From: Mobula hypostoma
Lineage: Eukaryota
Length of the DNA stretch: 64,000 nucleotides
Assembly (NCBI RefSeq): GCF_963921235.1
Contig: NC_086097.1
Span: 66,838,001-66,902,000 of the forward strand
Reading direction: 5' to 3'
Each line of letters starts with the position of its first letter. Position 1 is the stretch's first letter. Of the stretch, positions 8,473 to 58,183 are shown piece after piece. The notes beneath the pieces were generated by a model. The model was not told where the DNA came from. It worked only from the letters and a program-made list of their open reading frames with translations, and made no database searches. A program made the translations under genes and the position numbers.

Positions 8473-8508
8473 AGTCGACGTTTCAGGCCAAGACCCTTCG
8501 TCAGGACT
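8473..8508 (-). ncRNA. Minimal type I hammerhead ribozyme motif, intact
   Basis: AGTC CTGACGA AGG GTCTTGG CCT GAAA CG TC GACT. Confidence 0.75.
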
Positions 8509-56500: not shown

Positions 56501-58183
56501 GGGGGACAGATACCAGAGCAACACACATAAAAGTTGCTGGTGAACGCAGGAGGCCAGGCAGCATCTCTAGGAAGAGGTGCAGTCAACGTTTCAGGCCGAG
56601 ACCCTTCGTCAGGACTAACTGATGCTGCCTGGCCTGCTGTGTTCACCAGCAACTTTTATGTGTGTTGCTTGAATTTCCAGCATCTGCAGAATTCCTGTTG
56701 TTGACAGATACCAGAATAGGTTTGGAACATAGATTGTTCCACAAAGCCAACAAAAAGACAGGCATAGCAAGGACCCATACAGGTGCCCATAGCTACACCT
56801 TTAGTTTGGAGGAGGTGGGAGGAGCCAAAGGAGAAATTATTAAGAGTAAGGACTAATTCCGCTAGACGGAGCAGAGTGGTGGTAGAGGGGAACTGGTTAG
56901 GTCTGGAATCAAAAAAGCAGTGACATTTTTAAAAATACTTTTTTTTCCTCTTTTTTACAGAAAATACTCTCCTTACGCATGCAAGTTTTTGACCTAGTGA
57001 AGTACACAAAAACTTTAAGGATAAAAGTTGAATATCTAAAAACCTTTTTTAAATTCAAGTAATTGCCAAGCCAGTCAAATGAGTTACACTCATATCACAA
57101 ACACTGCAATACTCCATTTAAAATATATTCATGTTATACAGTATCTCAACACACATTGTAGTGAAACACCAGTAAAATACATACAAATAATTTATCTTAC
57201 CTGATTTCTCTGATAGCAGAAATTACAAGCCCACAACTTTGCTTTATAATCCACCTGACTAAGAGCAACAAGAAAAAAAATCAGTTTGCATTTTGCTTAG
57301 TTTTTTTCCATATACTTAGCAGCAGAAATAAAATTTTTCAGATTCCTCAATACCTATCACCAATTTTCTGTCCTATAGGAAATCACTTAAACAGGATATT
57401 ACAGGACAGGTCTCTACAATAATCTTAACAAACCTTGGTCCACCTGGCAATACTTCAGGCAAGAACTAATTTTGCAAGTGTTAGAAAGAGGGCCATTGGA
57501 CAAAAGCAGGCATCAACCATTCCTCACCATATTGCCCACTTCGTCCATGGTGACATGGATCATAATGTCAAAGACTTAAAGTTATAAACTAATGAACAGT
57601 CAACATTTGCTCTAGCTTACAGAAACAATGTTCAAAAATATTGATCTATCTTTTCTCTTTATCGATGTTTACTAACCTATATATTGCTTTTAAGTTTTGC
57701 TTCCATTTCAGTTTTCGAGCATTTGCAATAATTACCCCTGTTCATCTGCTTATATAAATTGCTTTGATCCTGAAAGAAACCCACCATTCCAAGGGATGTC
57801 TTTTGCAACATTATATGCTTTCCATAATTTAAATGTTTTGCAAAATATTTTAATTACAGATAATGTAACTGTATAAAATGAATTACTATTCACACTGCAG
57901 TGGGTACTTTCTCTGAGTCACCTGATCTTCCACTACTTACTTTATACCTATAAAAGACTTACCATAATGGATTCAAGACCGCACGGCAGGTTGCTCTACT
58001 GCAGAGGACAGGTTCATACTGAATGGGAGGCAAGTCAGGTCGCTCTTTTAATGGAGTAAACAAGGTACCCAGAGGGACAACCATTCTGGTTGCTTCCAAA
58101 CGACTTGAAGGCCAAACATTCCAGCTTAACCGAACACCGTCCCGATCTTCATTTTGCTGGATGAACTCTATAAAAGTTGCCAT
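11452..58183 (-). CDS. SEC23A: SEC23A (COPII coat Sec23 homolog A), spliced CDS span, 19 coding exons, 765 aa
   Basis: Exon lengths 221+58+87+237+80+145+159+116+124+81+90+107+154+78+162+87+156+66+90=2298 nt, in frame, GT-AG introns except one GC-AG. Translation [31 protein letters not shown]...[12 protein letters not shown] matches recalled SEC23; 765 aa length favours A over B (767 aa). Zn-finger Cys61/66/85/88, Phe382, Met702 and Arg finger Arg716 are present. Confidence 0.95.
12054..12119 (-). CDS. SEC23A: SEC23A exon 19
   Basis: [22 protein letters not shown]; 66 nt. Confidence 0.97.
15600..15635 (-). ncRNA. Hammerhead motif, stem I degraded
   Basis: AATC CTGACGA AGG..CCT GAAA CG TC AACT. 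Confidence 0.55.
15651..15686 (+). ncRNA. Minimal type I hammerhead ribozyme motif, intact
   Basis: AGTC CTGACGA AGG GTCTCGG CCT GAAA CG TC GACT. Confidence 0.78.
16159..16314 (-). CDS. SEC23A: SEC23A exon 18
   Basis: [52 protein letters not shown]; 156 nt. Confidence 0.97.
17171..17257 (-). CDS. SEC23A: SEC23A exon 17
   Basis: [29 protein letters not shown]; 87 nt. Confidence 0.97.
18370..18500 (-). mobile_element. Rex1-type RT remnant
   Basis: [24 protein letters not shown]. Confidence 0.55.
18640..19250 (+). mobile_element. Old CR1/L2-group RT remnant
   Basis: Fragmentary SGGT/KW/ISLLS/FGF-like motifs; heavily decayed. Confidence 0.4.
20280..20441 (-). CDS. SEC23A: SEC23A exon 16
   Basis: [28 protein letters not shown]...SFNGPPE; 162 nt. 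Confidence 0.97.
20937..21014 (-). CDS. SEC23A: SEC23A exon 15
   Basis: [26 protein letters not shown]; 78 nt. Confidence 0.97.
21133..21286 (-). CDS. SEC23A: SEC23A exon 14
   Basis: [51 protein letters not shown]; 154 nt. Confidence 0.97.
21734..21829. mobile_element. 96-bp Penelope-derived hairpin insertion without hammerhead
   Basis: 15-bp TSD TATAATTTTAGTTAA at 21719-21733 and 21830-21844; inverted arms gcaacacacatcaaagttgctggt. Confidence 0.9.
22926..23282 (-). mobile_element. Non-autonomous RTE-derived element, truncated copy
   Basis: RTE 5'UTR-like motif ggcagctcacctaggagaagg..actctgatctcaaacc on minus strand; homologous to 43235-43845. Confidence 0.65.
23400..23540 (-). mobile_element. 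Older Penelope terminal-repeat remnant
   Basis: aatctgcagatgctagaaattcaagcaacacac..aactcagcaggtcagg; decayed hammerhead. Confidence 0.7.
24090..24770 (+). repeat. Non-autonomous interspersed repeat with LINE-like 3' tail
   Basis: Ends gaatctcagggttgtatac..gataataaaagtactttgaatcttt; similar tail at 26650-26695. Confidence 0.5.
25762..25868 (-). CDS. SEC23A: SEC23A exon 13
   Basis: [35 protein letters not shown]; 107 nt. Confidence 0.97.
26030..26312 (-). mobile_element. HE1-like V-SINE
   Basis: V-domain ctttggactgtgggaggaaaccggagcatccagagaaaacccac plus CR1-derived tail aataggcccttccagccc. Confidence 0.75.
27170..27833 (+). mobile_element. Non-autonomous retroelement, GC-rich 5' part, (AATCT)n tail
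   Basis: Second, inverted copy at 60181-60845; tail atgacaataaacgaggactgagtgttctcataatctaaatct. Confidence 0.8.
28313..28563 (-). mobile_element. 5'-truncated L1/Tx1-type 3'UTR insertion
   Basis: 16-bp TSD TATTTATAGCACTTCT at 28297-28312 and 28564-28579; AATAAA + A-rich end; TT|AGAA target. Confidence 0.75.
28690..29060 (-). mobile_element. Old SINE, possibly Deu-domain (SacSINE-like)
   Basis: gggtcttaagtcacatgt..ggcggcagatttctttc resembles the Deu core from memory; decayed. Confidence 0.4.
29610..29699 (-). CDS. SEC23A: SEC23A exon 12
   Basis: [30 protein letters not shown]; 90 nt. Confidence 0.96.
29858..32625 (+). mobile_element. Young 5'-truncated CR1 LINE, ORF2 EN-RT with frameshifts and a deletion
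   Basis: [37 protein letters not shown]; 3' ctactcctgcacctattttctatgtttct; AAGC duplicated at both ends. Confidence 0.95.
30044..30171 (-). mobile_element. Penelope 3' tail insertion truncated at the hammerhead core
   Basis: 11-bp TSD CAGTTATAACG at 30033-30043 and 30172-30182; hammerhead 30143-30174 lacks 5' strand of stem I. Confidence 0.9.
34863..34943 (-). CDS. SEC23A: SEC23A exon 11 (GC splice donor)
   Basis: [27 protein letters not shown]; 81 nt; donor AAT|gcaagt. Confidence 0.94.
35800..37140 (+). mobile_element. Decayed CR1 RT region
   Basis: [20 protein letters not shown], colinear with other CR1 copies, many stops. Confidence 0.85.
37459..37582 (-). CDS. SEC23A: SEC23A exon 10
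   Basis: [41 protein letters not shown]; 124 nt; aag acceptor. Confidence 0.96.
38108..38277. mobile_element. Tc1/mariner-derived MITE remnant
   Basis: acctaataaagtggccactga TIR-like sequence and cacttcaagattcg..ttgtgcattcagagat internal segment. Confidence 0.55.
38278..39796. mobile_element. Penelope-like (Neptune-type) element with inverted GIY-YIG regions
   Basis: Minus arm 38278-38971 (terminal repeat + [12 protein letters not shown]); plus arm 38990-39796 (RT thumb, [18 protein letters not shown]). Confidence 0.9.
38382..38417 (-). ncRNA. Hammerhead motif with altered stem III
   Basis: AGTT CTGACGA AGGGTCTCAGCCC GAAA CA TC GACT. Confidence 0.55.
39980..40095 (-). CDS. SEC23A: SEC23A exon 9
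   Basis: [38 protein letters not shown](G); 116 nt. Confidence 0.96.
40836..41123 (-). mobile_element. tRNA-derived SINE, second copy of the 7664 family
   Basis: GTGGCCAAGTGGTTAAGGCG head; high identity to 7664-7941. Confidence 0.85.
41170..42670 (+). mobile_element. Highly decayed CR1 RT to 3' end
   Basis: ccagggaattataggc (PGNYR), aaatttgttgatgacaca (KFxDDT), CR1-type 3'UTR. Confidence 0.65.
42916..43074 (-). CDS. SEC23A: SEC23A exon 8
   Basis: [53 protein letters not shown]; 159 nt. Confidence 0.97.
43235..43845 (-). mobile_element. Non-autonomous RTE-derived element, longer copy
   Basis: ggcagctcatctaggagaaggaaagttctgatctcaaa motif on minus strand; homologous to 22926-23282. Confidence 0.7.
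43850..44880 (-). mobile_element. Tigger/pogo DNA transposon remnant with decayed DDE transposase
   Basis: [28 protein letters not shown]; subterminal sequence matches 51795-51892 inverted. Confidence 0.75.
45985..46960 (+). mobile_element. Two decayed CR1 3'/RT fragments
   Basis: ggattaatgggtctgtcatatg..CR1 3'UTR; aagattggaagtgtggtaaatagtgaagagga. Confidence 0.55.
47010..48882 (+). mobile_element. Rex1/Babar LINE, 5'-truncated, RT with stops and frameshifts
   Basis: [54 protein letters not shown]; tail gataataaacctgattctga. Confidence 0.92.
48900..51000 (-). mobile_element. Older decayed Penelope-like element (N-terminal and RT pieces)
   Basis: [29 protein letters not shown] (PLE N-terminus); 48930-49000 homologous to 56270-56350 RT. 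Confidence 0.7.
49511..49986. mobile_element. Candidate solo LTR inside the old Penelope element
   Basis: AT-rich 476-bp island with TGTT...AACA termini and TATAAAA; no TSD seen. Confidence 0.45.
51414..51558 (-). CDS. SEC23A: SEC23A exon 7
   Basis: [48 protein letters not shown]; 145 nt. Confidence 0.97.
51795..51892. mobile_element. Tigger/pogo-type terminal fragment (MITE end)
   Basis: gatgtgtcccaattaaccagaatccactata TIR-like end with TA. Confidence 0.6.
51898..51956. repeat. (CA)n/(CATA)n microsatellite
   Basis: Visible dinucleotide run. Confidence 0.9.
53363..53442 (-). CDS. SEC23A: SEC23A exon 6
   Basis: [26 protein letters not shown](R); 80 nt. Confidence 0.95.
54454..54690 (-). 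CDS. SEC23A: SEC23A exon 5
   Basis: [16 protein letters not shown]...KDLTAKQLQ; 237 nt. Confidence 0.97.
54890..54976 (-). CDS. SEC23A: SEC23A exon 4
   Basis: [29 protein letters not shown]; 87 nt. Confidence 0.96.
55090..55125 (-). ncRNA. Hammerhead motif with mutated catalytic core
   Basis: AGTC CGGACGA..GAAA CA TC GACT (CUGA to CGGA). Confidence 0.5.
56518..56702. mobile_element. Penelope-derived fold-back mini-insertion nested in Penelope RT
   Basis: 13-bp TSD GACAGATACCAGA at 56505-56517 and 56703-56715. Confidence 0.9.
56581..56616 (-). ncRNA. Hammerhead motif with GUU cleavage triplet
   Basis: AGTC CTGACGA AGG GTCTCGG CCT GAAA CG TT GACT. Confidence 0.65.
57201..57258 (-). CDS. SEC23A: SEC23A exon 3
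   Basis: [19 protein letters not shown]; ag/gtaag; 58 nt. Confidence 0.96.
57963..58183 (-). CDS. SEC23A: SEC23A coding exon 1 (exon 2); 21 nt 5'UTR upstream to acceptor at 58204
   Basis: MATFIEF...RAVLNPL; acceptor ttttacag, donor TG|gtaagt. Confidence 0.96.

What the first reader, a model, noticed from the sequence alone, without database searches (positions are those of the whole stretch)
8473..56616. Hammerhead ribozyme motif carried by a Penelope-like retroelement family, 8 copies in and around SEC23A
Seen: a 36-nt motif AGTC-CTGACGA-AGG(GTCTCGG)CCT-GAAA-CG-TC-GACT at 8473(-), 9110(+), 15600(-), 15651(+), 30143(-), 38382(-), 55090(-) and 56581(-), always at the same place in the element's terminal repeat. 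It folds as stem I (AGUC/GACU), CUGANGA core, stem II hairpin, GAAA, a vestigial palindromic stem III (ACGU) and a GUC cleavage site. Established: Penelope-like elements carry minimal type I hammerheads lacking stem III that are thought to cleave as dimers. Inference: this is a high-copy self-cleaving RNA family in this lineage that gene and ORF annotation would miss. I cannot tell whether this particular family has been described.
Basis: partly seen in the sequence, partly recalled or inferred. Interest (0 to 1): 0.75.

Follow-up and report, generated by a model that had tools for sequence, protein, structure and literature searches.

The report
Known-type Penelope hammerhead, ~68,000 intact copies
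The eight motifs are real end-pieces of a very abundant Penelope-like jumping gene, likely of a cartilaginous fish, and carry the minimal self-cutting RNA motif already described for such elements; the copies' ends suggest they were likely copied from uncut RNA, and they would probably not cut the SEC23A message.

Summary
All 8 sites exist; 4 of 8 keep core, stems and palindrome. The genome holds 32,886 exact copies of the 36-mer and 68,176 with intact core and stems; controls 0. The motif lies in the pseudo-LTR of a 3.5-kb Penelope-like element (RT, zinc-finger linker, GIY-YIG) and fits the minimal type I hammerhead of Cervera and de la Pena 2014. This is a new member of a known kind. Added here: copy 5' ends cluster at the motif's 5' edge (16 of 48 starts within -10..+12, 1 within 5 nt of the cut), and genome-wide junctions number 2,319 at +1 against 471 at the cut. 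An older subfamily spread with core change A6C. No covariation within the family, and Rfam finds nothing. Cleavage is untested. The scan noted this family before: 190 notes in at least 24 genomes, this one included, with both extras.

The parts
8375..9203 (.). One insertion: two 5'-truncated element ends joined head to head (8375-8756 minus, long tail; 8755-9203 plus, short tail), with a target duplication of about 9 bp
8473..8508 (-). Minimal hammerhead motif, rule-intact; beyond the SEC23A stop codon
9110..9145 (+). Minimal hammerhead motif, rule-intact, exact family majority; predicted cut between 9141 and 9142
15536..15777 (.). Short head-to-head insertion, both arms begin just 5' of the motif; 8-bp target duplication; intronic
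15600..15635 (-). Motif with stem I broken (2 of 4 pairs)
15651..15686 (+). Motif, rule-intact, antisense to SEC23A
21732..21830 (.). Tail-only head-to-head insertion of the same family, no motif, 12-bp target duplication
30040..30174 (-). 135-bp copy that starts at the CUGA of the core (motif 30143-30178; stem I 5' arm missing), inserted in a LINE remnant
38284..39796 (.). Head-to-head insertion with GIY-YIG remnants; motif 38382-38417 (minus) lacks the palindrome
55026..56920 (-). 5'-truncated element with RT C-half and GIY-YIG; motif 55090-55125 has a broken core; its 3' end lies 50 nt before a SEC23A exon
56517..56702 (-). Short copy nested in the RT region of the previous element, 12-bp target duplication; motif 56581-56616 rule-intact, the only intact one in SEC23A sense inside an intron
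4574..4660 (+).
23409..23537 (-).
42738..42850 (-).
11455..58183 (-). Host gene SEC23A, coding span (context only)

Best explanation
The motif is the minimal type I hammerhead in the pseudo-LTR of a Neptune-type Penelope-like retrotransposon, and the window's copies are truncated, decaying ends of that element that were likely copied from RNA the hammerhead had not cut. Shown: a 3.5-kb unit with RT and GIY-YIG domains flanked by two same-strand motifs; copy 3' ends at two sites about 97-100 and 127-139 nt from the motif's first base; target duplications; head-to-head arms; 5' ends clustered at the motif's 5' edge. From the literature: the element's protein nicks both strands and starts reverse transcription at two internal sites (the 'tail'), and the hammerhead cuts only as a dimer or with the protein's help. 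Inferred: reverse transcription runs from the tail sites through the uncut motif; many cDNAs stop at about +1, most likely the RNA 5' end made by an internal promoter; two cDNAs join by microhomology. The ribozyme is kept in source elements for a slow or late step (trimming tandem transcripts, removing the cap, or closing circles) and is not needed for each insertion. Lone intronic copies would not cut SEC23A RNA.
For: Two same-strand motifs 3,511-3,514 bp apart flank the ORF in 2 of 20 long-ORF loci (L083, L084). RVT_1 and GIY-YIG, both below Pfam cut-off, on a 958-aa ORF with a C-x4-C-x2-C linker; nearest named relative 71% identical, from a shark. 3' ends: 44 of 54 fall in +92..104 or +127..139, as in PMC11167929. 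5' ends: 16 of 48 in -10..+12 against 10 in the surrounding 138 nt, p 4e-8 (arms of one insertion are not independent), 1 within +28..38. Genome-wide junction patterns: 2,319 at +1, 1,053 at +5, 471 at the cut (+33), 282 at +37; many +33 junctions join an inverted arm at shared letters. A6C subfamily: 5,863 non-A hits, 75 C, 14 G, 11 T of the first 100 by hand count; 21 of 23 C6 copies group at 100/100 on flanks alone. PMC11167929: core mutants do not affect insertion in vitro; no RNA-seq ends at the cut.
Against: No cleavage, RNA end or promoter was measured. No compensatory change within the family: 3 of 100 copies with a changed stem I base have the matching partner. The hammerhead fold is not the predicted minimum-energy fold of monomer (-6.8 vs -11.7) or dimer (-11.1 vs -31.7 kcal/mol). 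Junctions at +33 exceed those at +37 by 1.7-fold, so some cut templates are not excluded. Cut-and-religated circles would give copies that look uncut. The extra G expected from copying a cap was seen in 2 of 6 clean junctions but not as an excess genome-wide (37 G of 100). Junction counts are confounded by microhomology.
Confidence: 0.75

Rival explanations
1. The two hammerheads of a tandem transcript cut out a unit-length RNA that is ligated into a circle, and the circle is the main template (model of Cervera and de la Pena 2014). Cleavage is then an obligatory step.
For: Same-strand motifs flank the unit, and L083 and L084 are more than unit length (partial 5' repeat + unit + tail). The core is kept in all subfamily majorities but one and in a second, unrelated family. 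Copies from religated circles would carry intact motifs.
Against: Short copies start at the motif's 5' edge, which a circle does not offer as an end, and few start at the cut. A subfamily with A6C, which lowers Mg-dependent cleavage strongly in other hammerheads (PMC7151607, PMC3088659), reached thousands of copies. PMC11167929 found core mutants insert normally in vitro.
Confidence: 0.15
2. The motif no longer works as a ribozyme in this lineage; it is kept as a promoter, splice or protein-binding element.
For: No covariation in the family; the downstream block +52..75 is as conserved as the core; fixed A6C; a branch-point/pyrimidine/AG-like run abuts the motif, and the motif overlaps the likely RNA start.
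Against: Differences between subfamilies and organisms fall mostly at tolerated positions (N7, loop II, 11.1, H17) and in flanks. A second family keeps the same core around a different 6-bp stem II. The lizard PLE motif cleaves with protein help (PMC11167929).
Confidence: 0.12
3. The copies were domesticated to cut or regulate SEC23A pre-mRNA.
For: Six motifs lie in SEC23A introns, five in sense orientation.
Against: Only one of the five sense copies is rule-intact, so no intact same-strand partner exists in the introns. Density in the window is the genome background (about 20 intact copies per Mb). Changes are CpG decay. With native upstream sequence the predicted chance of stem II is 0.00-0.07.
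Confidence: 0.03

Closest known systems
Minimal type I hammerheads in pLTRs of metazoan Penelope-like elements (Cervera and de la Pena 2014, PMC4209133; read: main text parts 1-2 of 4, supplement parts 1-2 of 3)
   Same: CUGANGA-H core, bulged base before stem II, GAAA, palindromic 15.2-16.2, no helix III, short stem I, pyrimidine-rich 5' side, place in the pLTR, mostly single motifs of truncated copies.
   Different: No cartilaginous fish in Table S1 or Fig. S3 as read. Copy number 68,176 intact against about 4,000 (coelacanth) and 9,000 (Xenopus). Very uniform rather than heterogeneous. One subfamily has A6C.
PAc, Poseidon element of Anolis (Frangieh et al. 2024, PMC11167929; read: parts 1-2 of 4)
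   Same: Hammerhead at the pLTR-ORF junction, two 3' ends 30-40 nt apart (tail), no sign that cut RNA is the template.
   Different: Here the linker is Neptune-type, and the first in-frame ATG/GTG lies about 60 nt after the cut, not inside the ribozyme.
Neptune clade EN+ PLEs (Craig et al. 2021, PMC8557442; read: passages)
   Same: RT then CX2-5CxxC linker then GIY-YIG with CCHH; partial tandems, inverted 5'-truncated arms, tail.
   Different: Clade was not tested by a tree with reference elements.
Animal non-LTR retrozymes (PMC7229834, passages; bioRxiv 10.64898/2026.07.22.740005, parts 1-3 of 5, supplements not seen)
   Same: Type I hammerheads derived from PLE pLTRs; the preprint finds them in one chondrichthyan genome.
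   Different: Retrozymes are short same-strand tandem arrays; among 39 near-intact copies in 1.2 Mb only 2 neighbour pairs were same-strand, 1.3-1.4 kb apart.
A6C core variant of phage Bcep176 (PMC3088659, passages; PMC7151607, part 1 of 4)
   Same: Same core change, in an older subfamily of this element.
   Different: There a single phage ribozyme with a full helix III, tested (slow in Mg, better in Mn); here thousands of retroelement copies, untested.

Membership tests
Minimal PLE hammerhead (min-HHR) | Core C3-U4-G5-A6-N7-G8-A9, G12-A13-A14, A15.1-U16.1, H17 | tested here: met
   7 of 8 window copies; 68,176 genome-wide with stems
Minimal PLE hammerhead (min-HHR) | Stems I and II can pair; bulged base after A9; G10.1-C11.1 (or G-U) | tested here: met
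   4+4 pairs in the majority; G-C in older subfamilies, G-U in the youngest
Minimal PLE hammerhead (min-HHR) | No helix III; palindromic 15.2-16.2 for a dimer | tested here: met
   ACGU in 6 of 8 window copies
Minimal PLE hammerhead (min-HHR) | Located in both pLTRs of a PLE | tested here: met
   L083, L084
Minimal PLE hammerhead (min-HHR) | Compensatory changes in the stems | tested here: inconclusive
   None within the family; a second family has a different stem II and a weak 2-bp stem I
Minimal PLE hammerhead (min-HHR) | Self-cleavage as dimer or with protein | not testable with these tools
   needs a bench assay
Rfam hammerhead families | Match to a covariance model | tested here: not met
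   0 at gathering score in the window; no hammerhead family at E up to 10 in 8300-9400
EN+ Penelope-like element | Single ORF with RT and C-terminal GIY-YIG | tested here: met
   958-aa ORF in L076, both domains, below Pfam cut-offs; GIY-YIG above cut-off in 2 window fragments
EN+ Penelope-like element | Partial tandem pLTRs, inverted truncated arms, 30-40 nt tail | tested here: met
Neptune clade | CX2-5CxxC linker between RT and EN | tested here: met
   C-x4-C-x2-C before the GIY-YIG in the ORF printed
Neptune clade | Placement in an RT tree with reference elements | not tested
   no named reference elements were on hand
Non-LTR retrozyme | Short same-strand tandem units each with a hammerhead | tested here: not met
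   none in the window or among 39 copies in 1.2 Mb; arrays elsewhere in the genome were not searched

The most novel reading that the evidence does not exclude
The hammerhead is gated by where the RNA starts. The pyrimidine tract just upstream is predicted to pair with the core, so read-through and host-intron copies stay unfolded (chance of stem II 0.07 in 40 young copies and 0.01 in 5 older A6 copies, against 0.19-0.23 with shuffled upstream and 0.50-0.65 when the RNA starts at the motif), and only RNA begun at the pLTR start, where copy ends pile up, can fold it. That would explain why tens of thousands of intact copies are tolerated in introns, and why the A6C subfamily, whose core is already weak, shows no such block (0.42, 6 copies). 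The A6 and C6 subfamilies would be a natural pair for testing what PLE hammerheads are for.
Probability: 0.2. Interest if true: 0.55.

Novelty: new member of a known kind. Interest (0 to 1): 0.25.

Why it matters
The motif type and its link to Penelope-like elements are published. What this genome adds is scale (about 20 intact motifs per Mb) and a large natural record of copy ends. That record supports, in vivo, the in vitro result that uncut RNA is the template, and the A6C subfamily offers a ready contrast for the open question of what these ribozymes do. It says little about SEC23A.

Tried and rejected
Rfam: no hammerhead match; the listed hits are chance matches to the inverted repeat. 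Covariation inside the family: not found. One copy (L081) has a double change in stem I, but it is 1 of only 3 among the 100 listed. Pile-up of 5' ends at the cut: not found. The junction pattern was badly designed (it matched the native letters) and is not used. Splicing into the motif's 5' edge: an acceptor-like run is there, but no constant 5' exon was seen among 48 non-native upstream sequences, and no same-strand joint was listed. Expression: no RNA holder listed; the 8 runs laid are contigs of uncertain kind and cannot show ends or strand. Metagenome scan for relatives: 67 pattern matches, none confirmed. Rows dropped: four 5' starts at +89..91 from older-subfamily partial matches and copies under 90% identity, copies without 130 nt of alignable upstream sequence, which removed many old A6 copies, so the tree shows C6 against mostly young A6; only the first 40 young copies were folded. 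Not in print as far as searched: searches gave no paper on a cartilaginous-fish PLE hammerhead family, on 5' ends at the motif edge, or on A6C in a PLE; Repbase, Dfam and the preprint's supplements could not be seen and may hold the family.
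Full report
Observation. The 36-mer matches six window sites within three mismatches, with none in 100 shuffles; all eight listed sites are printed and lie at the same place in a repeat. Scored against hammerhead rules, 4 of 8 keep core, stems and the CG palindrome: 8473, 9110, 15651, 56581. 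Rfam gives no hammerhead match. SEC23A is on the minus strand from 58183 to 11455 (18 exon matches to a shark SEC23A); six motifs are intronic, five of them in sense, and only 56581 of those five is intact.

Scale. The 3.48-Gb genome holds 32,886 exact copies and 68,176 that keep core and stems; reversed-pattern controls give 0. In 120 stretches of 10 kb taken at fixed places on large contigs, an iterated profile found 230 hits, 139 of which cover the motif and 45 nt beyond; 25 of 123 gap-free ones are rule-intact, which scales to about 72,000 and agrees with the direct count; the 139 scale to roughly 400,000 (extrapolation).

The element. A search with an RT fragment from the window gave many 91-94% identical copies. 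Of 20 loci chosen for long open frames, two (L083, L084) have same-strand motifs 3,514 and 3,511 bp apart on either side of the ORF. The 958-aa frame of L076 has RVT_1 and GIY-YIG matches, both under Pfam's cut-offs, with a C-x4-C-x2-C linker, the Neptune mark according to PMC8557442 (passages). Its nearest named relative is 71% identical and from a shark, so the host is likely a cartilaginous fish. The first in-frame ATG or GTG lies about 60 nt after the predicted cut.

Ends of copies. In the random stretches plus the window, 44 of 54 3' ends of young copies fall at +92..104 or +127..139 from the motif's first base. This is the PLE tail, which PMC11167929 (parts 1-2 read) traces to two internal start sites of reverse transcription. 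Window insertions have 8-12 bp target duplications and often two arms head to head. 5' ends are not spread evenly: 16 of 48 lie in -10..+12, 10 in the surrounding 138 nt, 1 within five bases of the cut (p 4e-8, but arms of one insertion are not independent). Genome-wide patterns of two non-native letters followed by 24 native ones count 2,319 at +1, 1,053 at +5, 471 at the cut and 282 at +37. Among 30 loci at the cut, 17 were called as joins to an inverted arm, at places where the arms share letters, so the counts are shaped by microhomology, and the 1.7-fold excess of +33 over +37 neither shows nor excludes some cut templates. An extra G at +1 was not in excess (37 of 100 by hand count; 2 of 6 clean junctions).

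Conservation. Subfamily majorities, clustered on the downstream flank only, keep the motif except at N7, loop II, 11.1, H17, CpG-decay sites and, in one cluster, A6. In 102 older copies the mean top-letter share is 0.88 for the core, 0.83 for stems, 0.65 for the flank +38..50 and 0.89 for the block +52..75: the motif is kept, but not uniquely. There is no covariation inside the family (3 of 100); single copies decay neutrally. Four runs of four other coded organisms hold the motif with G-C at 10.1-11.1 and changed flanks. A second, unrelated family with a GIY-YIG remnant upstream has the same core around a different 6-bp stem II and a weak stem I (133 hits).

A6C subfamily. 21 of 139 sampled motifs have C at position 6 (6 G, 2 T). 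A strict pattern finds 5,863 non-A copies, 75 of the first 100 with C. On flanks alone, 21 of 23 C6 copies fall on one side of a 100/100 branch with 3 A6 copies; the other two are point mutants of the young family (many old A6 copies were filtered out). Several carry GIY-YIG remnants 70-84% identical to the young protein. A6C slows other hammerheads strongly in Mg (PMC7151607 part 1; PMC3088659 passages). None of the eight window copies is C6.

Folding. The hammerhead arrangement is not the predicted optimum for monomer or dimer, in line with the low activity reported for this class (PMC4209133). With its native upstream tract the predicted chance of stem II is near zero; it rises to 0.5-0.7 when the RNA starts at the motif. 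This is prediction on related copies, a lead only.

Mechanism. Shown: anatomy, end distributions, subfamilies. From the literature: double nicking, internal initiation, dimer- or protein-dependent cleavage, an internal promoter in the Drosophila element (PMC2377424, passages). Inferred: cDNA is made from uncut RNA, often stops at the RNA 5' end near +1, and two cDNAs join by microhomology; the ribozyme serves a slow or late step in source elements and is dispensable per insertion. Circles made by cutting and religation remain possible for the long copies. A role for SEC23A is unlikely.

Comparison and verdict. It meets every sequence feature of the minimal PLE hammerhead of PMC4209133 that could be tested; cleavage could not be. 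No cartilaginous fish appears in the lists I read there; a 2026 preprint reports retrozymes in one chondrichthyan genome (supplements not seen). Paper searches found no description of this family, of the 5' end cluster or of A6C in a PLE; repeat libraries were not available. The scan itself has noted the family 190 times in at least 24 genomes, with both extras in this genome; I reached them before looking. New member of a known kind, interest 0.25.

Noticed in passing
L205, L217, L316-L335 (G000, 133 pattern hits): A second, unrelated PLE family (endonuclease remnant looks Poseidon-like; label recalled, not tested) with the same minimal core, a 6-bp stem II with G-U/A-U variation and a 2-bp stem I.
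   Followed up: partly
G000, e.g. L286-L313, L336-L355: Older subfamily with fixed core change A6C, at least about 4,400 strict matches; its upstream tract is not predicted to block folding.
   Followed up: yes
window 9085-9111 (+) and all native copies: A branch-point-like word, pyrimidine tract and AG abut the motif's 5' edge, like a splice acceptor; an intron end abuts the hammerhead in Drosophila Penelope (PMC4209133). No spliced copy was seen.
   Followed up: partly
window 55026 and 54976 (-): The 3' end of a sense-oriented element lies only 50 nt upstream of a SEC23A exon (residues 94-122).
   Followed up: no
window 56517-56702 inside 55026-56920: A short copy inserted into the RT region of an older copy of its own family, with a 12-bp target duplication.
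   Followed up: yes
window 48918-51072 (-): Degraded remnant of an older, more distant PLE (34-65% protein identity to the young family); related pieces at 4124-4366 and 5000-5752.
   Followed up: no
window 12690-15526 (-), 29792-32537 (+), 33482-37136, 61191-63119: LINE remnants with endonuclease and RT domains (Pfam hits); the 30040-30174 copy sits in one of them.
   Followed up: no
window 9204-9920 (+): Frame with a zinc-knuckle-like run, perhaps a gag remnant of an LTR element (resemblance recalled; no Pfam hit), next to the 8375-9203 insertion.
   Followed up: no
L081:7380-7415 (-): One copy with a double change that keeps a stem I pair and an A-U in place of the G-U in stem II; perhaps a small separate subfamily (3 of 100).
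   Followed up: partly
window 27258-27834 and 60176-60762: An inverted pair of a 590-bp repeat, 87% identical, unrelated to the PLE; not identified.
   Followed up: no
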